Virus record (IMG/VR): IMGVR_UViG_3300002092_001784
Coordinates: 64,001-128,000 of that record
DNA length: 64,000 nucleotides
Source of the DNA: a virus
Lineage: Duplodnaviria; Caudoviricetes
Strand: one strand, 5' to 3'
The notes under the pieces were generated by a model that saw nothing but the letters and a program-made list of their open reading frames with translations, did no database searches and was not told the origin of the DNA. Below are positions 2,481 to 39,135 of this stretch, piece by piece. Every line of letters starts with the position of its first letter. The stretch's first letter is position 1. A program made the translations under genes and the position numbers.

Positions 2481-3463
2481 AAATAGCATTTCTTACAGAA
2501 ATAAAGGGGGCCGGTAAAATTCCAAAAGCGTTTCCCAATATGAGAACAGAATTTGCATGGATGCATACATTAGGTGCAGTTCATCACAATATTGAGTTAT
2601 TTAATTCGGTGGAAGGATATGATCATGTTTTTATTATTTTTCCAAAGGGTAGGGTATTTTTAAGTGCGGAGGGAATTAAAATAGTTAGTGCGGTTAACCC
2701 AGTATCGGAATTATTACAATCTGATATAGTTTCTGTATTAAAAAATAATAATACAAAGGTACATTATATACAGGAAGGACCACATTGGTGGTTCAATGAT
2801 TATGATGTGGCTGACCAAATTTATTTTTTTAATTTATTATCTAAATGTGATAGTATATTCGTACATAATCAGTATGATGTAAATTATTATCAGGGTATGT
2901 TTATGGATAAACCAATTCATGTCATACCTACGTTAATGATTGAAGAATTACTTTCTGATATAATTCCAATTAAGCAAGATAAAGTTATAATTGGTGGAAA
3001 CTTTGCACATTGGTATGGTGGATTTGAAAGTTATGTAGTGGCCGGTACATTGGGGATACCCATTTGGGCTCAGGACTCTCATGCAAAACGTGAATATGAA
3101 TCTGAAGTTCCGAACCTAAACCATTTACCACGGTTAATATGGGTGGATTGGATGAAAACCTTATCTGAATTTAAGTATGCAGTACACCTTATGCCAACCG
3201 TTGCTGCTGGTACATTTTCATTGAATTGTGCATATTTTTCTATACCATGTATTGGCAATGAATTGTTGGATACTCAACGGATATGTCACCCAGAACTTTC
3301 AGTTGATGTTTCTGATTTGAAACGGGCAAATAAACTGATATATCAATTACATACCGATAAAGAATTTTATAATGAATGTAGTAGAACCGCAAAGGAGAAT
3401 TATCATAGGTACTATTCGGAAGTAGTTTGGAAAGATAATATGAATAAAAAATTACAATTATGA
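2477..3463 (+). CDS. Putative GT-B glycosyltransferase
   Basis: 328 aa in the glycan operon; C-terminal half resembles GT-B; weak motif support. Confidence 0.5.
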   Translation: MKIAFLTEIKGAGKIPKAFPNMRTEFAWMHTLGAVHHNIELFNSVEGYDHVFIIFPKGRVFLSAEGIKIVSAVNPVSELLQSDIVSVLKNNNTKVHYIQEGPHWWFNDYDVADQIYFFNLLSKCDSIFVHNQYDVNYYQGMFMDKPIHVIPTLMIEELLSDIIPIKQDKVIIGGNFAHWYGGFESYVVAGTLGIPIWAQDSHAKREYESEVPNLNHLPRLIWVDWMKTLSEFKYAVHLMPTVAAGTFSLNCAYFSIPCIGNELLDTQRICHPELSVDVSDLKRANKLIYQLHTDKEFYNECSRTAKENYHRYYSEVVWKDNMNKKLQL

Positions 3464-4233
3464 GTATAACAGTTATATTAAACGGTTACAAACGTGGTGA
3501 TCATTTAGACGAGCAACTTAGGGCTTTACAGAATCAAACGATTCAACCAGATGAAATTTTACTATGGTATAATAATCCCGGCGATGATTCGGAAATCAAT
3601 TATAATATTGGTACTCAGATACCTGCGGCATATTGTAACTACAACTTCGGTGTATGGGCACGGTTTACTTTCGCATTAAACGCTCGCAGTGAGTTTGTTT
3701 GTGTGTTTGATGATGATACCATACCCGGTTCAAAGTGGTTAGAAAACTGCCTTAATACGATGAACAAGACGGAAGGATTGTTGGGTACGGTTGGTTTATT
3801 ATACCTCAATCCATTACCACCGGTACAATCATCTTATTATGAACACTATATTCGGTTTGGCTGGCCGGAAAGTGGGAACAACGAACGGACAGTTGAGGTG
3901 GATTTGGTCGGACATAGCTGGTTCTTTAAGAAAGAATGGTTATCTTATATGTTTAGAGAATTGCCAGACCCAAAATATAATACTTGCGGTGAAGATATGC
4001 ACTTTAGTTATATGTTACAAAAATATGCAGGTATAAAAACATTTGTACCGCCACATCCAATTTCAGATAAAGAATTGTGGGGTAGTATAAAGGGGGCAGA
4101 ATATGGTGGAGACCAAAATTCACTATGGGAGAGCAATCAACGAAGTATAGATGGTATACCATTTAGAGCACTAATGAATGATTACTTTTATAATCAACGA
4201 ATGAATGGATGGAGGTTATGTAATGAAAAATAA
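3460..4233 (+). CDS. GT2-like glycosyltransferase
   Basis: ITVILNGYKR start, VFDDDTIPG and GEDMH motifs. Confidence 0.75.
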   Translation: MSITVILNGYKRGDHLDEQLRALQNQTIQPDEILLWYNNPGDDSEINYNIGTQIPAAYCNYNFGVWARFTFALNARSEFVCVFDDDTIPGSKWLENCLNTMNKTEGLLGTVGLLYLNPLPPVQSSYYEHYIRFGWPESGNNERTVEVDLVGHSWFFKKEWLSYMFRELPDPKYNTCGEDMHFSYMLQKYAGIKTFVPPHPISDKELWGSIKGAEYGGDQNSLWESNQRSIDGIPFRALMNDYFYNQRMNGWRLCNEK

Positions 4234-5227
4234 ATTACCAATATTGATTTGTTTTGGAACAAGGCCAGAATGGTTGAAGGTTAAACCATTGGTGGACATT
4301 ATGAAAGATGATGAATATGTTTTGTTATTTACAGGTCAACACCCTGATTTGTTAAATGAGGTTGGTGTAGATAGACGTATAAAAATCATAGATTATGAAA
4401 ACCGATTAGATGCCGTTATTAGTAGTTGTATGCTACAATTTCCCGAAGGGAAATACAGAGCAGTACTTGTACAGGGAGATACCGCATCTGCCTTCGGATG
4501 TGCGATAGCAGCGTTTAATAGGCAAATTAAAATTCTGTATATGGAAGCCGGATTACGCAGTGGTAATTTGAAGCACCCGTATCCAGAAGAAGGATATAGA
4601 CAGATGATTTCTCGTATATCCGATATTAACTTTGCACCTACTGAATTATCAGAAACAAATTTATACGAAGAAAAGACACATGGTGATACTTTTGTGACAG
4701 GAAATACAATTTTGGACAGTTTAATTGGTTATGGTAACCCAACCTATGGTAATAGAGTATTGGTAACTTTACATCGTAGAGAAAATCATTTTTGGATAGA
4801 CCAATGGTTTGATGAAATTAATAAACTTGCAGTAGATAATCCAGAATTAGAGTTCATAATGCCAATACATCCAAATCCAATGGTAATCGCATTTAGAAAA
4901 CTATTACCAAATGTGACTTTGGTTGACCCTCTTGGACATGATGAATTAATTGGAATATTAAAAGATTGCAAATTAATAATAACCGATAGTGGTGGTTTAC
5001 AAGAAGAAGGCTCGTTTTTCAATAAAAAAGTGATTGTGTGTAGAAAAACAACAGAAAGACCGGAAGGTATTAAAAGTGGACATTTATATATGTGTGATTC
5101 CCCAAATAAACTTAGGAAATTATTTGTTAAATTGAATAAAAAACCGTATATTTGTAGCCCATGTCCATACGGTGATGGAAATGCTGCACAAAACATCTAT
5201 GATATAATACGAAATGAAAAATTTTAA
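4223..5227 (+). CDS. wecB: UDP-N-acetylglucosamine 2-epimerase
   Basis: GTRPE, TGQH, VQGDT, EAGLRS, TDSGGLQEE and ERPEG motifs; start moved to ATG 4223. Confidence 0.92.
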   Translation: MKNKLPILICFGTRPEWLKVKPLVDIMKDDEYVLLFTGQHPDLLNEVGVDRRIKIIDYENRLDAVISSCMLQFPEGKYRAVLVQGDTASAFGCAIAAFNRQIKILYMEAGLRSGNLKHPYPEEGYRQMISRISDINFAPTELSETNLYEEKTHGDTFVTGNTILDSLIGYGNPTYGNRVLVTLHRRENHFWIDQWFDEINKLAVDNPELEFIMPIHPNPMVIAFRKLLPNVTLVDPLGHDELIGILKDCKLIITDSGGLQEEGSFFNKKVIVCRKTTERPEGIKSGHLYMCDSPNKLRKLFVKLNKKPYICSPCPYGDGNAAQNIYDIIRNEKF

Positions 5228-25620: not shown

Positions 25621-25692
25621 AACAATTTATTAACATTAAAAATTTGGAAATTAGAATTGAATTTTGTATCTTTGAGTATTGTTCTTTGAGAG
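25619..25692 (+). promoter_or_regulatory. Extended promoter with boxA-like site
   Basis: TTAACA repeat, TTTG-N20-TATCTTTG, GTTCTTTGA at 25681. Confidence 0.75.
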
Positions 25693-31623: not shown

Positions 31624-32002
31624 GGGGCTGACAGGTATTGACAGCGTATGACGAGGGTATATTGATGCAAGCGGGGTTAGATGGAAACCCTTGAACACCT
31701 ATCAAACAATAAAAGGCGTTAATAACTACGCATTAGCAGCGTAACCCATAGGGTTAACATAGCTTGGGGTCGTTGAACATATAACCTCGCAACAGAAGTT
31801 CATAAGGTGATGATACTACCAGCTAAGTGTATTGTGGGTGCAGGCGGAGCTCATATAAAATAATTCCAGCCAAGTTGTTTATCGGTGGGTTTCTCACATA
31901 CATCAAACCGTTTTATTTGTCAGTAAGAAACAACTGAATAAGCTTGTGAACGATGTGTATTTAAGCTATGTCTGGACGAGGATTCAACTTCCTCCAGCTC
32001 CA
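31624..32002 (+). ncRNA. ssrA: tmRNA; tag ORF 31715-31744 encodes GVNNYALAA
   Basis: 5' GGGGCTG pairs with CAGCTCC-A (G3.U70 alanine identity); T arm GAGGA-TTCAACT-TCCTC; tag ends in YALAA. Confidence 0.95.
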
Positions 32003-32081
32003 CGAAAATCAATTCAAGCTCGCCAATATCTAACTACTGCATCAAAACTGTGGATAGAGGTGAGCTTGATTTTTGTATTAA

Positions 32082-35431: not shown

Positions 35432-36300
35432 GATATTTTAATGAAACATTTGAAAATTCGGTTAATTATATACAAAACGCTTCCGTAGATTTATTATTCT
35501 TAGACCCACCATACTATATCAGTGGAAACAAAAAAAATATAAATTTAGAAACCGGTGATAGAAGTGATTGGGACTCACAATGGGAAACTAAAGATGAATA
35601 TTATAATTGGATTGAAACTGTACTAAAGTTAGGATATACTCAATTAAAAGATTATGGTTCTTTGTATTTGTGTATAAGTTGGCAACATTCTCCAATGTTT
35701 CATCTGTTGCTTGAAAAATGTGGATTTACAGTTCAAAACAGAATAACATGGAAACGAGATAAAGGTAGGGGTTCAAATAACAATTGGAAGTCTATGCATG
35801 AAGATGTTTTTTTTGCAACAAAGCATCCTAGCAAATACACATTCAATGTCAATGCGGTAATGATTGAAAAAAATGTAGTTGCCCCATATCGTAATACCGA
35901 TGGCTCTCCGAAGGATTGGTGGGTTGACGCCAATGGTAATAAAGTAAGATTGACATATCCGGGTAATATTTGGACAGATTTATGTGTACCGTATTGGAGT
36001 ATGAACGAAGTTAAAAGTTATGCAAAAACTAAAAAAACACCCAATAACTTATTTCAAAAACATAATACACAAAAACCAAAAGCTCTTGTGAAGCGATGTA
36101 TATTGGCAAGTACAAATGAGAATGATTTAGTTGTAGATTATTTTTCTGGTAGTGGAACTACTGCAATATCTTCTGAAGAACTAAATAGAAACTCAATTTC
36201 ATTTGAAATAAATAAAACATACATTGAAATATTAAAAACAAGAATTAATAACGAATTGCCAAATAATACTACAATAGATAATGATTTAACATTTTTTTAA
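35422..36300 (+). CDS. Beta-class N6-adenine/N4-cytosine DNA methyltransferase
   Basis: DPPY near the N-terminus, then HNTQKP and DYFSGSGTT near the C-terminus. Confidence 0.92.
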   Translation: MAIRYFNETFENSVNYIQNASVDLLFLDPPYYISGNKKNINLETGDRSDWDSQWETKDEYYNWIETVLKLGYTQLKDYGSLYLCISWQHSPMFHLLLEKCGFTVQNRITWKRDKGRGSNNNWKSMHEDVFFATKHPSKYTFNVNAVMIEKNVVAPYRNTDGSPKDWWVDANGNKVRLTYPGNIWTDLCVPYWSMNEVKSYAKTKKTPNNLFQKHNTQKPKALVKRCILASTNENDLVVDYFSGSGTTAISSEELNRNSISFEINKTYIEILKTRINNELPNNTTIDNDLTFF

Positions 36301-36357
36301 CATTAAAAATTTGGAAATACCAAATAAAAGTTGTATATTTGTAATGTAGTTCTTTGA
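36286..36357 (+). promoter_or_regulatory. Extended promoter plus boxA-like site heading the ncRNA region
   Basis: TTAACA repeat, TTTG-N20-TATATTTG, GTTCTTTGA at 36349. Confidence 0.8.
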
Positions 36358-36367
36358 GAAGATAATT

Positions 36368-36469
36368 GGTCGGGTGGCGAAATTGGTAGACGAATAATCT
36401 CTTACATATAGAGATAAGAATAAGGCTGCAAGGCAGTACTTCATGCAGGTTCGAGTCCTGCCCTGATCA
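36368..36469 (+). ncRNA. tRNA-Leu-like RNA with non-canonical anticodon region (copy 1)
   Basis: GGTCGGG/CCTGATC-A, D arm TGGCGAAATTGGTAGACG, T arm GCAGG-TTCGAGT-CCTGC. Confidence 0.7.
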
Positions 36470-36475
36470 CAAAAT

Positions 36476-36865
36476 AAATTCGTAACCGATAGCAGGTGGG
36501 CAGTAGGGCTATCCGAATTAAAACAAATGGTATAACGATGAAATGATCAACTCGAGATAAGATCAGAGTAGTATGAAAGTAAACGAAGCCCGTGGTATCA
36601 ATCAAACACCTCTACGTGGTGATGCTAGAAATCCAGAAATGGAGCTAAGTTTGAACAGTTCAGTTAAAAAAAGTAAGATGGTTAAAGTTAGTCCAAGCTT
36701 TAACATTAGTGTTCAATGGATTAGAAAGGGAAATCTGTAATCAGTCGTAATGGGCTATGAGCTTACGTCTAATCGCTAATATTTAATCATCGTGACCCTA
36801 ATCTTATTATTCCTATAATTTAATTGATGGAGTATGAACGTTAGTTCAGTAATAAGAAAGGGTTC
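36476..36865 (+). ncRNA. Unassigned structured RNA A
   Basis: No long ORF; helices GATAGC/GCTATC, ACGATGA/TCATCGT and ACCCT..CTTATTA/TAATAAG..AGGGT. Confidence 0.55.
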
Positions 36866-36872
36866 TAATATT

Positions 36873-36996
36873 GATCAGGTGGCGGAATTGGTAGACGCTT
36901 ACAATATGATAAGGTGAACGAGAGGAGAACCGATAAGAATCAACCGCTTTTATATTATTCAGCTTCACTTAGCAGGTTCGAATCCTGCCCTGATCA
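36873..36996 (+). ncRNA. tRNA-Leu-like RNA with a 73-nt insert replacing the anticodon and variable arms (copy 2)
   Basis: GATCAGG/CCTGATC-A, D arm TGGCGGAATTGGTAGACGC, T arm GCAGG-TTCGAAT-CCTGC. Confidence 0.7.
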
Positions 36997-37001
36997 CATA
37001 A

Positions 37002-37065
37002 TCGACCATAAGAGGATTGGTAATGAGGAACACATTACAAGTGGTTGACAGCTCGGAAAGACGGC
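37002..37065 (+). ncRNA. Small two-hairpin motif with GACAG..GGAAAGAC (possibly Flavo-1-like)
   Basis: TCGACCAT/GTGGTTGA followed by CAGCTCGGAAAGACGGC; second copy at 40353. Confidence 0.4.
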
Positions 37066-37085
37066 ATTTGTTCTTTGAAAAAATA

Positions 37086-37660
37086 AACTCTTCTGCTTGA
37101 AGCAAAGCAATCTTAAAGACATCCATAACCACCATAAGAACGTTTGTTGGGTTAATAAGATAGATCATAGCAGTGATCGTTGTTTTGTGGAGAGATGATA
37201 TAACGTTTTATCAATTCCAATCTGCAATTGGACAGAAGAGTTTTTAAAATAGAAAGAGGAGACTGGGTTATATTTGATAATGGAGGCAATTCCTGGATAT
37301 ATCACACTCCTCTAAATAAACAGGCTAAACATTGAATCCTGATGTGAATTACTGCCCGTAGGGTTAATTTATAGGTACTGATATTGTGCCCTTAATTCAC
37401 ATAAAGATGTACACAGTAATGTGTAACGTGTTGTTCCCTTGAGAAAGGAATAGTTTATGTTCAGAGACAGAGGGTGTACCTTGAGTACCGACTCTCACCA
37501 ACACGAATGAGTTCTCAGCAAAAATGATTAATAAGGAACGAAGCAATCCCTTAATATACATAGTGAGGTATAGTTAATCATTGTGACCCTACTCTTATCA
37601 GTAGTTTAAGAAACTATCGCTCTGTTTTTTACAGGATGGAAAGGATTGATAGACAAGAGG
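37086..37660 (+). ncRNA. Unassigned multi-domain structured RNA B (about 570 nt)
   Basis: Follows a boxA-like site; helices AAACTCTTCTG/CAGAAGAGTTT, GAGGAG/CTCCTC, ATGTGAATTA/TAATTCACAT, CGTGTTG/CAACACG, AATGATTAA/TTAATCATT. Confidence 0.6.
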
Positions 37661-37696
37661 GTGCTAATAAATAAATTGAAAAAAGTACAAAATTAA

Positions 37697-37728
37697 TTTG
37701 GAAATGTGAAAAATTATTCGTATCTTTG
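37697..37728 (+). promoter_or_regulatory. Bacteroidota promoter upstream of tRNA-fMet
   Basis: TTTG-N20-TATCTTTG. Confidence 0.75.
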
Positions 37729-37772
37729 TATAAATTAAAAAACTATATACTTATATATATATTAAAACATAC

Positions 37773-37850
37773 AGCAGGATGGACTGGAGATGGTCCCAGC
37801 TCGGTCTCATAAGCCGAATCACACGAGTTCGAATCTCGTTCCTGCAACCA
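37773..37850 (+). tRNA. tRNA-Met(CAT), probably initiator
   Basis: TCGGT-CTCATAA-GCCGA; 1:72 mismatch; CCA encoded. Confidence 0.85.
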
Positions 37851-37922
37851 TTAAAAAATTGATTGAAGCCAGCACCTAATAAAACCGAGTGCGTGAATAA
37901 ATAAAAAGCCGGACATCAATTT

Positions 37923-37994
37923 TTAACATTTTTTAACTAAAAAAGATTTGGAAATTAAAAATATTTTTCGTATCTTTGTAGTATAGTTCTTTGA
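37923..37994 (+). promoter_or_regulatory. Promoter plus boxA-like site
   Basis: Partial TTAAC repeat, TTTG-N20-TATCTTTG, GTTCTTTGA at 37986. Confidence 0.75.
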
Positions 37995-38001
37995 GATGAT
38001 T

Positions 38002-38153
38002 ATTGAAACAAGCTGGAGCTTGTAATGTGAAAATTGAATTAATTTAGGGGTTCATAACTCCTTCATCCAGCGGTGCAATACCGTAGTAACATTCAATGTA
38101 ATGTGGTTAATATTCAGAATAAGCAGATGATGGTTCAATTCCATCTTTCAATA
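38002..38153 (+). ncRNA. tRNA-like-capped RNA (152 nt)
   Basis: ATTGAAA/TTTCAAT-A acceptor-like stem; GATGG-TTCAATT-CCATC T arm; inner GCTGGA/TCCAGC helix. Confidence 0.6.
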
Positions 38154-38180
38154 ATTATTTTTAATAAAATTACAAAAAGA

Positions 38181-38242
38181 TTTGGAAATGTGAAAAATTT
38201 TTCGTATCTTTGTAAAACAAAATTAAAACATACGTTCTTTAA
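38181..38242 (+). promoter_or_regulatory. Promoter plus boxA-like site upstream of the GOLLD-like RNA
   Basis: TTTG-N20-TATCTTTG; GTTCTTTAA at 38234. Confidence 0.75.
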
Positions 38243-38259
38243 TAGTATTTAAGATTTAA

Positions 38260-39135
38260 GAACTGAACAAAGCTTCGGCAGAGTGAAAGTTCAAGACGGC
38301 CGCCTATGGTCGTTAAATAAACTACGAAAGTAGGATAAAGTGAACCGGTGTGGTTTATACGGTTTGCGGTTTGATAATCGAAAGGTTGTTGAGCTCGAGT
38401 AGGCAATGGAAATATCATCGCTCCTTTAGTATTGAGGGTAACACTGTAAAGATGGTGGAGAGATGACTGGGCTAAGTAGATAGTCCGGTTGAGTTCGGAA
38501 GAACAATAAGAATAATTTCAAGGATTTATGCAAGAAATGGGAACTTAATCCCTTCTCACTATTGCGTGATTCAATATGAGAGTTGACTTAAAACCGAAAG
38601 GTAATGTAAGTATGGTGAATTGCCAGAATGTACAGGTGGTGCTGTTATTCCTTTCACTACAAAGTTTTACCAAAAGCTTTGAATACTTCAGTCCACTTAA
38701 AATGTGGTGTTAGGGATAACACATTGGGTAGTTTAGTATTCCGTTGTTCAAAAGGTAACGGAGCTGGTTGGCGAACCACTACCCGAATCCATCTACAAAC
38801 CAAAACTATTTGAAATATGGTTCAAAACTAAAAATCAAAAAGCAAAAGTGTTCGTCAGTTGCAAGCGAAAGGTGCGTACTTAGTAATGGGTTGTCCATTG
38901 CCATATGTAATAGCCAAAATCATATGATTCTAAGGAAAGACTTCTAACACCGCAAGTGCTAATCAGTTCGGCAGAATTGATGAGGTGTAATAGTTGGAGA
39001 GTAGTTTGTAACTCAAAGAGTGGTTCACTTAAATAACCCGCATTGAATCAATACCAGCCAAAAGCAGGTGGATAATAAGGGAAACAATAATCCTTATAAA
39101 GATGGTTCACATAAGCAAGTAATCTCATTGCAAAT
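38260..39135 (+). ncRNA. GOLLD-like giant ornate RNA (boundaries approximate)
   Basis: About 870 nt with no credible ORF; many GNRA and UUCG-type hairpins; 3' blocks GTTCAAAAGGTAACG, AAAGCAAAAGT..GCAAGCGAAAG, GAGTAGTTTG..GAGTGGTT and GGTGGATAA resemble GOLLD as I recall it; next to tRNAs. Confidence 0.75.

What the first reader, a model, noticed from the sequence alone, without database searches (positions are those of the whole stretch)
36476..37660. Two unassigned large structured RNAs sharing a junction motif
Seen: region A (36476-36865) and region B (37086-37660) both contain AATCAT(C/T)GTGACCCTA(A/C)TCTTAT (near 36786 and 37576). In both, this joins the 3' strand of one helix (ACGATGA/TCATCGT in A; AATGATTAA/TTAATCATT in B) to a second helix that closes on AGGGT. 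The upstream helix encloses about 250 nt in A but only about 50 nt in B. B has at least five more self-contained domains separated by A-rich linkers. Inference: a conserved two-helix module with variable inserts, either one large RNA or an array of decoy domains. B is in the size range of ROOL RNA, but I cannot recognise it as such.
Basis: partly seen in the sequence, partly recalled or inferred. Interest (0 to 1): 0.66.

Follow-up and report, generated by a model that had tools for sequence, protein, structure and literature searches.

The report
Uncatalogued large phage RNA, two copies
The stretch holds one full and one cut-down copy of a large folded non-coding RNA that occurs in about a hundred phage genomes beside tRNA and tmRNA genes, is missing from the RNA family catalogue, is very abundant during infection by one cultured relative, and has no known job.

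Summary

Region B's conserved core is 37321-37672, about 350 nt, not 37086-37660. It is a typical member of a structured RNA family found in at least 98 IMG/VR phage contigs. One member lies in the cultured crAss-like Cellulophaga phage phi14:2, in the intergenic region that a 2020 preprint reports as an abundant, stable "long non-coding RNA" of unknown function.

No Rfam 15 family covers it. That includes ROOL, GOLLD, group I introns, RNase P and HDV-like ribozymes.

The helices covary. An invariant strand (AAUGAGUUCUCAGCAAG) probably pairs with two hairpin loops. The variable arms carry swappable cassettes, and in some members a homing-endonuclease gene.

Region A keeps only the 3' two-helix module (27 bits against 44-116 for other members). 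Its long arm carries a foreign pseudoknotted module shared with crAss-like phage cr53_1.

tRNA-Leu-like elements flank A. The unit has one promoter, boxA-like leaders and no predicted terminator, so I infer a processed poly-RNA transcript.

Function is unknown. My best guess is a stable trans-acting RNA tied to translation or tRNA metabolism. This scan has already reported the same family on other DNA.

The parts
36310..36341 (+). Bacteroidota-type promoter (TTTG at 36310-36313, TATATTTG at 36334-36341) that starts the RNA operon
   Evidence: Read from the sequence. A 64-nt repeat of it stands at 37942 (D2). That it works as a promoter is an inference.
36349..36359 (+). boxA-like leader GTTCTTTGAGA. 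Further copies lie at 37070-37080 (before B's extension, with no promoter in front) and at 37986-37996.
   Evidence: (D4) and 75: four exact copies in 64 kb, three of them at the heads of RNA units. The boxA or processing role is an inference.
36368..36469 (+). tRNA-Leu-like element 1: acceptor, D and T arms kept, anticodon region replaced
   Evidence: Rfam tRNA model 28.6 bits. ARAGORN does not call it.
36476..36871 (+). Region A: cut-down paralogue that keeps only the family's 3' module
   Evidence: Model R1 gives 27.4 bits, E 3.6e-6. None of the H1-H5 blocks or the AGUUCUCAGCAAG strand is present.
36479..36517 (+). A: 5' hairpin (UUCGUAACCGAUAGC ... GCUAUCCGAA), specific to this copy
   Evidence: No relatives were found.
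36535..36793 (+). A: helix H6 (ACGAUGA with UCAUCGU) enclosing a 245-nt insert
   Evidence: It corresponds to family helix H6, which covaries.
36695..36774 (+). Foreign cassette inside A's H6 arm: a pseudoknotted module. AAGCU pairs with AGCUU, crossed by GAUUAGA with UCUAAUC, around the invariant GUAAUCAGUCGUAAUGGGCUAUG.
   Evidence: Shared with the crAss-like phage cr53_1 intergenic region and 7 IMG/VR contigs. The second helix differs but stays paired in all 4 distinct versions. No Rfam match.
36792..36868 (+). A: junction GUGA plus helix H7 (ACCCUAAUCUUAUUA ... UAAUAAGAAAGGGU) plus tail UCUAA
36873..36996 (+). tRNA-Leu-like element 2, with a 56-nt insert in place of the anticodon arm
   Evidence: Rfam tRNA model 34.8 bits
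37087..37313 (+). 5' extension specific to this phage: a closed multibranch domain (37087-37241) and a hairpin (37255-37313)
   Evidence: Fold z = -2.4. Not aligned or conserved in 80 relatives.
37321..37672 (+). Region B core: full family member
   Evidence: Aligns over all blocks with 54 relatives. R1 gives 93.5 bits, but B was in the model's seed.
37321..37341 (+). B H1: hairpin CAGG[CUAAACAUUGAAU]CCUG. The loop is invariant and the stem covaries.
   Evidence: stem variants AAGG/CCUU, CAGG/CCUG, GUCG/CGAC, AACC/GGUU, CGCU/AGCG
37343..37401 (+). B H2: variable hairpin (UGUGAAUUA with UAAUUCACA)
37410..37425 (+). B H3: GNRA-tetraloop hairpin UACAC-A[GUAA]U-GUGUA
   Evidence: 3 pairs with compensatory changes. 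The loop is GUAA, GAAA or GAGA in relatives.
37427..37505 (+). B H4: long-range helix CGUGUUG with CAACACG. It encloses H5 (37434-37450, UUCC[CUUGAGAAA]GGAA) and a variable region.
   Evidence: 7 pairs, 6 of them with compensatory changes. H5 stem variants UUGC/GCAA and UUAC/GUAA. Homing-endonuclease ORFs sit in this variable region in L016, L047, L071 and L106.
37506..37521 (+). B hub strand AAUGAGUUCUCAGCAA. It is nearly invariant and is the proposed partner of the H1 loop (CAUU with AAUG) and the H5 loop (UGAGAA with UUCUCA).
   Evidence: The pairing is inferred. Support is one concerted swap (L070) and one alternative subtype (CCC with GGG).
37523..37582 (+). B H6: AAUGAUUAA with UUAAUCAUU and a 42-nt variable loop
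37583..37672 (+). B: junction GUGA, helix H7 (ACCCUACUCUUAUC ... GAUAGACAAGAGGGU), tail GCUAAUAAA
37696..37729 (+). Next promoter (TTTG 37696-37699, TATCTTTG 37722-37729), which bounds the unit
   Evidence: D1. No terminator-like site in 36200-38300.

Best explanation
SHOWN
- B (core 37321-37672) is a gene for a large structured non-coding RNA. It belongs to a widespread, uncatalogued phage RNA family.
- The fold is a string of helices H1-H7, and the helices covary.
- A (36476-36871) is a tandem, cut-down paralogue. It keeps only H6, the junction, H7 and the tail. In its H6 arm it has taken up an unrelated pseudoknotted cassette that is also found in crAss-like phages.
- A relative in Cellulophaga phage phi14:2 lies in an intergenic region reported as abundant from the earliest sampled time of infection and stable afterwards.

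INFERRED, STRUCTURE
- The fold is built around an almost invariant single strand, AAUGAGUUCUCAGCAAG. This strand probably pairs with the loops of H1 and H5, giving a double pseudoknot.
- That core sits next to the invariant junction CGUGA and the closing helix ACCCU/AGGGU.
- H2, H6, H7 and the interior of H4 are variable arms that carry swappable cassettes.

INFERRED, EXPRESSION
- One promoter at 36310 drives the whole unit: leader, tRNA-like 1, A, tRNA-like 2, leader, B.
- RNase P and the tRNA 3'-end processing enzymes cut at the tRNA-like elements and so release A and B as separate stable RNAs.

INFERRED, FUNCTION (about 0.35 within this explanation)
- The RNA acts in trans during infection. 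Its invariant core binds a highly conserved partner linked to translation or tRNA metabolism.
- The variable arms display accessory modules.
For: Family and its absence from catalogues:
- The pattern for the 3' module hits 105 IMG/VR stretches.
- Model R1 finds 99 of 100 loci at 44-116 bits.
- Rfam 15 gives no family over the element in the window or in 47 related loci.

Structure:
- H3 and H4 have 9 pairs with compensatory changes.
- H6 has 8 of 8 pairs with compensatory changes. 89.7% of cells are paired, against 39-52% when the partners are slid, and 0 of 500 shuffles reach the observed values.
- H1 and H5 stem variants stay paired.
- The common U-G pair in H7 and the G-U pairs in H6 fit the + strand only.

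Pseudoknots:
- UGAGAA with UUCUCA is invariant except in L070. There the loop becomes GGCAU and the strand GUGCC, which still pair.
- CAUU with AAUG occurs in 63 members. The alternative 5' subtype has CCC with GGG in 7.

Copy A:
- Only two R1 hits exist in the complete 266-kb genome.
- A lacks all 5' blocks.
- The cassette is shared with cr53_1 and others.
- Tandem copies recur in L017 and L131.

Expression:
- The phi14:2 member lies at 2908-3362, right after g004.

Context:
- tRNA arrays or a tmRNA lie on the same strand in many loci.
- The window holds a tmRNA, 19 ARAGORN tRNA calls (18 with an assigned anticodon) and a GOLLD RNA.
- tRNA-like elements flank A with 6-7 nt spacers.
- No terminator is predicted.
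Against: - No experiment bears on function.
- No protein neighbour is shared by more than 16 of 121 loci.
- Both pseudoknots rest on nearly invariant sequence plus one or two lineage events, so covariation support is thin.
- The H7 outer helix never varies among full members, which says nothing either way.
- A's whole-region fold energy is no better than shuffled sequence (z = -0.75). A could therefore be a decaying duplicate rather than a working RNA.
- The processing model is not tested. I could not obtain reads for this phage.
- The phi14:2 paper names intergenic regions, not exact RNA ends. That the family RNA is the abundant species there is likely but not proven.
Confidence: 0.7

Rival explanations
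1. A is a working mini-variant, not a decaying duplicate. On this view the 3' two-helix module (H6, CGUGA, H7, tail) is an autonomous, portable unit, for example a docking site for a shared partner or a stability or processing element. Different cargo RNAs are attached to it: the family's 5' domain in B, and the crAss-type pseudoknot cassette in A.
For: - A keeps every invariant nucleotide of the junction and the closing helix (GUGACCCUA, AGGGU, CUAA), while all else differs from B.
- A's H6 and H7 remain fully paired with sequences different from B's.
- The tRNA-like elements frame A precisely, as they would a mature product.
- The cassette in its arm is itself a conserved structured module.
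Against: - No second A-type RNA (3' module alone with intact invariant junction and closing-helix nucleotides) was found among about 105 loci.
- L131's partial copy has mutated invariant positions and looks degenerate.
- A scores far below all other members (27 against at least 44 bits).
- Its overall fold is no better than shuffles.
Confidence: 0.35
2. The family is a self-assembling RNA-only particle or scaffold like ROOL and GOLLD: a homo-oligomeric cage or ring made by phages.
For: - The lifestyle matches: large, ornate, phage-borne, next to tRNA genes, and a GOLLD gene lies 1 kb downstream in the same island.
- GOLLD and ROOL were shown by cryo-EM to form multimers (bioRxiv 10.1101/2024.12.08.627333, abstract listed).
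- Invariant loops (the H1 loop and the GNRA loop of H3) could make contacts between molecules.
Against: - There is no sequence or model similarity to GOLLD or ROOL.
- I saw no self-complementary conserved loop.
- Nothing here can test assembly.
Confidence: 0.12
3. The family is a ribozyme. Either it acts on tRNA or tmRNA precursors like RNase P, or it is a group-I-like self-splicing or mobile element, as homing-endonuclease genes sit inside it.
For: - Many invariant nucleotides lie in junctions rather than helices.
- NUMOD4-HNH endonuclease ORFs lie inside the H4 loop on the same strand in several members. Known ribozymes that house such ORFs this way are introns.
- The RNA is constantly associated with tRNA and tmRNA genes.
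Against: - Rfam group I, group II and RNase P models give nothing at E up to 10.
- The element lies in intergenic DNA with unrelated, non-coding flanks, so there are no exons to join.
- I could not trace a P3-P7 type core.
- Only about 6 of about 105 members carry an endonuclease gene. That fits a homing endonuclease targeting a conserved gene rather than an intron.
Confidence: 0.1
4. It is a divergent member of an already catalogued family (ROOL, GOLLD 5' half, HDV-like ribozyme, tmRNA) that the models miss.
For: - The size range fits ROOL.
- There is a weak HDV-F-prausnitzii hit inside A (36595-36658; 24 bits against a threshold of 44; E 0.13).
Against: - No hit reaches any gathering score in the window or in 47 related loci.
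- A relaxed scan gives no ROOL or GOLLD hit over A or B.
- The weak HDV hit lies in A's private insert, not in the shared module.
Confidence: 0.03

Closest known systems
The 'long non-coding RNA' of the g004-g005 intergenic region of Cellulophaga phage phi14:2 (Drobysheva et al., bioRxiv 10.1101/2020.03.07.982082)
   Same: Same family by sequence and structure. The phi14:2 copy (KC821624 2908-3362) scores 107.6 bits with model R1 and carries all blocks. It also lies near a phage tmRNA, as in this window.
   Different: That report gives only expression level and timing of an intergenic region. It gives no family, fold or ends. The phi14:2 genome has one copy, while this phage has a full copy plus a cut-down one, bracketed by tRNA-like elements.
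GOLLD RNA (Rfam RF02032)
   Same: Large, ornate, phage-borne, beside tRNA genes, function unknown. A true GOLLD lies at 38724-39131 in the same RNA island.
   Different: No model hit over A or B and no local similarity. The core elements are different. This family is about half the size.
ROOL RNA (Rfam RF03087; accession from memory)
   Same: Size range, prophage or phage context, tRNA neighbourhood (from my knowledge of the literature).
   Different: No ROOL hit at E up to 10 on B, and none at gathering score in 47 related loci.
Group I introns that house homing-endonuclease genes
   Same: The core is conserved, peripheral loops vary, and NUMOD4-HNH ORFs are inserted in a peripheral loop on the same strand.
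   Different: It is intergenic with no exons. There is no Rfam Intron_gpI hit. Only a few members carry an ORF.
Phage T4 stable RNAs of the tRNA cluster (species 1 and 2, rnaC and rnaD)
   Same: Stable non-tRNA RNAs co-transcribed with phage tRNAs and presumably released by tRNA-processing enzymes, function unknown (from my knowledge).
   Different: The T4 RNAs are about 120-140 nt. No similarity was tested or expected.

Membership tests
Unnamed phage RNA family (phi14:2 lncRNA type) | 3' module: hub strand, H6, CGUGA, H7 closing ACCCU/AGGGU, tail UGCUAA | tested here: met
   B scores 93.5 bits with R1, though it was in the seed. It aligns block by block. A meets it only in part: 27.4 bits, no hub strand, tail UUCUAA.
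Unnamed phage RNA family (phi14:2 lncRNA type) | 5' domain: H1 loop UAAACAUUGA, GNRA hairpin H3, long-range H4 enclosing H5 loop CUUGAGAAA | tested here: met
   B has all of these at 37321-37505. A has none, so A is not a full member.
Unnamed phage RNA family (phi14:2 lncRNA type) | Phage context beside tRNA or tmRNA genes, same strand | tested here: met
ROOL (Rfam) | Match to the Rfam covariance model at or near the gathering score | tested here: not met
   No hit at E up to 10 over 36250-38750. None in 47 related loci at gathering score.
GOLLD (RF02032) | Match to the conserved 3' domain model | tested here: not met
   The only GOLLD hit in the window is 38724-39131. A and B have none and share no significant local similarity with it.
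Group I intron | Interrupts a gene whose exons are rejoined | tested here: not met
   Flanks are AT-rich intergenic DNA, promoters or complete tRNAs, and differ between loci.
Group I intron | Conserved P3-P8 core with P7 guanosine site, or a match to Rfam RF00028 (accession from memory) | tested here: not met
   No Intron_gpI hit at E up to 10. The core was not traceable by eye. A dedicated subclass model was not available.
Bacterial RNase P RNA | Conserved regions CR-I to CR-V with the P4 pseudoknot, or a match to Rfam RNase P models | tested here: not met
   No RNase P hit at E up to 10. The CR motifs, recalled from memory, were not seen.
HDV-like or theta ribozyme | Nested double pseudoknot P1-P1.1-P2-P3 with a catalytic C, and a model score above threshold | tested here: inconclusive
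   Only a weak hit inside A's insert (36595-36658, 24 of 44 bits). The cassette at 36695-36774 has a P1/P2-like crossed topology, but I could not assign a P3 or P1.1. Self-cleavage was not tested.
tRNA-Leu-like phage RNAs (flanking elements) | Acceptor, D and T arms of a class II tRNA with the anticodon region replaced | tested here: met
   tRNA model hits of 28.6 and 34.8 bits with large inserts. ARAGORN does not call them. They are context, not part of A or B.

The most novel reading that the evidence does not exclude
The family is a new functional class of large phage RNA: a ribozyme, or an RNA-only assembly on a par with ROOL and GOLLD. Its 3' two-helix module would be a portable unit that phages graft onto different RNA cargos. 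Region A would be the first seen example of such a graft, carrying a pseudoknot cassette borrowed from crAss-like phages.
Probability: 0.2. Interest if true: 0.85.

Novelty: new variant of a known kind. Interest (0 to 1): 0.62.

Why it matters
Large bacterial and phage RNAs with intricate conserved folds are rare. Each one solved so far (RNase P, the group I and II introns, and recently OLE, ROOL and GOLLD) has revealed unusual chemistry or architecture.

This family has four useful properties:
- It is widespread in phages that infect Bacteroidota-type hosts.
- It is reported as among the most abundant transcripts in a cultured crAss-like phage.
- It travels with tRNA and tmRNA genes.
- It is conserved enough to be a homing-endonuclease target.

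It therefore probably matters to the phage, perhaps for taking over or protecting translation.

Cellulophaga phage phi14:2 and its host can be grown, so the open question of what these phage RNAs do can be tested directly. The A/B pair adds natural evidence on which part of the RNA can stand alone.

Tried and rejected
- Rfam: a gathering scan of the window, a relaxed scan of 36250-38750, gathering scans of 47 related loci and a relaxed scan of the cassette loci all gave no family over the elements.
- GOLLD or tmRNA similarity within the window: none. The two short repeats shared with GOLLD (D7 and D11) are at chance level.
- Genome-wide spread in bacteria: 16 pattern hits in species genomes looked like a very wide host range. 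Only 4 of them (MAG contigs L123, L124, L128, L131) are real by model R1. The rest are chance matches, as expected for an 18-base pattern in 596 Gb.
- Shared protein partner: none was found. The best candidate was a family homologous to phi14:2 g004, adjacent in about 10 loci. It has no Pfam family and its PHROG has no known function. It is absent from this complete phage genome, and its model (pLDDT 68) matches no solved fold.
- Group I intron reading: rejected, because there are no exons and no model hit.
- RNAalifold's UGAG/CUCA hairpin with a 2-nt loop is sterically impossible, so I read that strand as a pseudoknot partner instead.
- Relatives of A's private 5' hairpin: only chance hits in coding DNA.
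- Literature search by sequence words: nothing relevant.
- MAFFT alignments mis-register H1, H6 and H7 by one base in some rows, so pair counts were taken from the model-fitted alignment, which leans towards the model's structure.
Full report
**Setting**

The window is bases 64001-128000 of a 266-kb IMG/VR phage record that CheckV rates complete. Its promoters are of the Bacteroidota type (TTTG ... TAnnTTTG), read from the sequence.

The finding lies in an island of RNA genes:
- a tmRNA at 31624-32005
- 19 ARAGORN tRNA calls, 18 of them with an assigned anticodon
- a GOLLD RNA at 38724-39131, 275 bits

The order around the finding is:
1. promoter, 36310-36341
2. leader GTTCTTTGAGA, 36349
3. 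tRNA-Leu-like element, 36368-36469
4. region A
5. tRNA-Leu-like element, 36873-36996
6. spacer with a second copy of the leader, 37070
7. region B
8. next promoter, 37696-37729

No terminator-like site lies in 36200-38300.

The 23-nt motif occurs only at 36785 and 37576, with none expected by chance. They enclose 245 nt in A and 42 nt in B, and both second helices close ACCCU on AGGGU.

**Relatives**

A pattern for the shared module (GTGACCCTA, 40-70 nt, AGGGTKCTAA) hits 105 stretches of viral contigs.

An alignment of 80 non-redundant copies with 600 nt of upstream sequence shows conserved blocks over about 300-450 nt and nothing further upstream.

B aligns with 54 relatives over every block from 37321 to 37672. 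It folds somewhat better than shuffles (z = -2.4) and may be a lineage-specific 5' extension or leader.

**Not a catalogued family**

Rfam 15 gives no family over A or B:
- none at gathering scores
- none meaningful at E up to 10 (the only hit of note is a 24-bit HDV-like match inside A's private insert)
- none over the element in 47 related loci

There is no local similarity to the window's GOLLD or tmRNA.

**Structure**

From:
- H1 is a hairpin with an invariant loop, UAAACAUUGA, and a covarying stem.
- H2 is a variable hairpin.
- H3 is a hairpin whose loop is GUAA, GAAA or GAGA, that is, a GNRA tetraloop. Three of its pairs show compensatory changes.
- H4 is a 7-bp long-range helix. Six of its pairs show compensatory changes, for example GUGUUG/CAACAC becoming ACGUGAG/CUCACGU or CAUGCAG/CUGCAUG.
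- H4 encloses H5. The H5 stem covaries (UUCC/GGAA, UUGC/GCAA, UUAC/GUAA) and its loop CUUGAGAAA is invariant. H4 also encloses a variable region.
- Then come the nearly invariant strand AAUGAGUUCUCAGCAAG, helix H6, CGUGA, helix H7 and the tail UGCUAA.

I built a covariance model of the 3' domain (R1). It finds 99 of 100 loci at 44-116 bits. The missing one, L018, is a chance pattern match in coding-like DNA.

On the model-fitted alignment:
- All 8 H6 pairs show compensatory changes.
- 89.7% of cells are paired, against 39-52% when partners are slid by 1-3 columns.
- No shuffle out of 500 reaches the observed values.
- The outer part of H7 never varies, so it is neither supported nor contradicted.
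- The frequent U-G and G-U pairs fit only the + strand.

This alignment is fitted to the model, so it leans towards the structure.

**Two pseudoknots are likely but thinly supported**

First pseudoknot: the H5 loop UGAGAA is complementary to UUCUCA in the invariant strand. Both are almost invariant. The one member with a different loop (L070, GGCAU) also has a different strand (GUGCC), and these still pair.

Second pseudoknot: the H1 loop CAUU is complementary to AAUG, just upstream in the same strand (63 members). Members with an alternative, shorter 5' domain have CCC and GGG at the corresponding places (7 members).

These are one or two evolutionary events, not statistics.

If both hold, the invariant strand is a hub that ties the 5' domain to the H6/H7 junction.

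**Variable arms, tandem copies and endonuclease genes**

The same inserts recur in otherwise different members, and several look like tRNA T-arms.

In L016, L047, L071 and L106 (and a shorter one in L091), a NUMOD4-HNH homing-endonuclease ORF lies on the same strand inside the H4 variable region. GIY-YIG genes are also frequent nearby.

This would fit a highly conserved, probably important gene that homing endonucleases target. It also shows the RNA tolerates 400-550 nt inserts there.

Tandem copies recur: L017 has two, and L131 has a full copy followed by a degenerate partial one.

**Region A**

R1 finds only B and A in the whole 266-kb genome. A scores 27.4 bits, far below every other member.

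What A keeps:
- every invariant nucleotide of the junction and closing helix
- fully paired H6 and H7

What A lacks:
- H1 to H5
- the hub strand, of which only ACAAAUG remains at 36523-36529

What A has of its own:
- a private 5' hairpin with no relatives
- a 245-nt insert in H6

Within that insert, 36695-36774 is a second conserved element. AAGCU pairs with AGCUU, crossed by a helix that reads GAUUAGA/UCUAAUC here. The same helix is GGAUAC/GUAUCC in crAss-like phage cr53_1, and is CGAUACA/UGUAUUG and AGAAUCA/UGAUUUU in two other contigs. These surround the invariant GUAAUCAGUCGUAAUGGGCUAUG.

In cr53_1 this element opens a 310-nt intergenic region. In L012 it directly follows a promoter. It matches no Rfam family.

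So A is a mosaic: the family's 3' module plus a foreign cassette. I cannot decide whether it works or is decaying. I give the working mini-variant reading 0.35.

**Expression evidence from a cultured relative**

A typical member finds Cellulophaga phage phi14:2, a cultured crAss-like phage. The copy lies at 2908-3362, immediately after g004. In GenBank only tiny opposite-strand ORFs were once annotated there, and these were later removed. R1 gives it 107.6 bits.

The preprint on this phage's virion RNA polymerase reports the following for the g004-g005 and g005-g006 intergenic regions:
- They are transcribed rightward at higher levels than most protein genes.
- Unlike other early transcripts, they do not decline.
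[quoted passage not shown]"

The second region holds a tmRNA (4031-4500). I found no later work on these RNAs in the held library.

**Distribution**

Of 16 pattern hits in 185,579 species genomes, only four MAG contigs are real. The family is therefore essentially confined to phages.

No protein gene is shared by more than 16 of 121 loci. A g004-like protein that is adjacent in about 10 loci is absent from this phage and has no recognisable fold.

About 6% of loci have a class-II tRNA or tRNA-like gene starting within 40 nt of the RNA's end, as region A does. In others a tRNA ends where H1 begins (L058).

**How it most likely works**

Shown:
- a conserved, covarying fold
- phage restriction
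- linkage to tRNA and tmRNA genes
- a relative lying in an intergenic region reported as highly and stably transcribed

Inferred:
- The whole unit is one transcript from the 36310 promoter. The leaders resemble the boxA antitermination signal of rRNA operons; that resemblance is recalled from memory and not tested.
- The tRNA-like elements act as punctuation at which RNase P and the tRNA 3'-end processing enzymes release A and B.
- The mature RNA acts in trans through its invariant core.

For the function I rank:
- a stable binder of a conserved translation or tRNA-metabolism component, about 0.35 within the main explanation
- an RNA-only assembly like ROOL or GOLLD, 0.12 as a stand-alone rival
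- a ribozyme, 0.1 as a stand-alone rival

None of these can be separated with the tools at hand.

**Novelty**

The family is absent from Rfam 15. As far as I could find, it is known in print only as an unexplained abundant transcript.

This scan has already reported the same family several times on other DNA, with the same verdict. The family itself is therefore not new to the scan.

What this window adds:
- the A/B pair
- the mosaic nature of A, with the crAss-type cassette
- the hub-strand model with two loop pairings
- the bracketing by tRNA-like elements

Noticed in passing
36368-36469 and 36873-36996: Two paralogous tRNA-Leu-like elements with intact acceptor, D and T arms, but with oversized, unrelated sequence in place of the anticodon arm. 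ARAGORN does not call them. Similar elements directly follow the large RNA in L014, L045, L055, L066, L070 and L128.
   Followed up: partly
36349-36359, 37070-37080, 37986-37996, 25681-25691: The exact motif GTTCTTTGA(G/A)A stands at the heads of RNA transcription units. The copy at 37070 has no promoter in front of it. It resembles a boxA antitermination signal or a processing site.
   Followed up: partly
L005 3960-4268 (crAss-like phage cr53_1, NC_055889.1 75400-75710): A 310-nt unannotated intergenic region. It opens with the pseudoknot module shared with region A and ends in a T-arm plus acceptor-like hairpin (AAGGTTCGATTCCTTAGCTATCAC). It is probably another unassigned structured phage RNA.
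   Followed up: partly
L133 4031-4500 (Cellulophaga phage phi14:2): The phage carries its own tmRNA (tag GSSVQKLAMVA). It is not annotated in the records shown and accounts for the second 'long non-coding RNA' of the published transcriptome.
   Followed up: yes
L016, L047, L071, L106, L091 (H4 variable region of the RNA gene): NUMOD4-HNH homing-endonuclease ORFs are inserted inside the non-coding RNA gene on the same strand. This is unusual outside introns.
   Followed up: partly
37990-38160: A further promoter-plus-leader unit whose product gives only a weak tRNA hit (38080-38153, 18 bits). It may be another aberrant tRNA-like RNA.
   Followed up: no
L075 1056-1763 and relatives (phi14:2 g004 family, PHROG 15656): A protein of about 230 aa and unknown function lies directly beside the RNA gene in about 10 loci, either upstream or downstream. 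It has no Pfam family and no fold match, and it is absent from this window's phage.
   Followed up: yes
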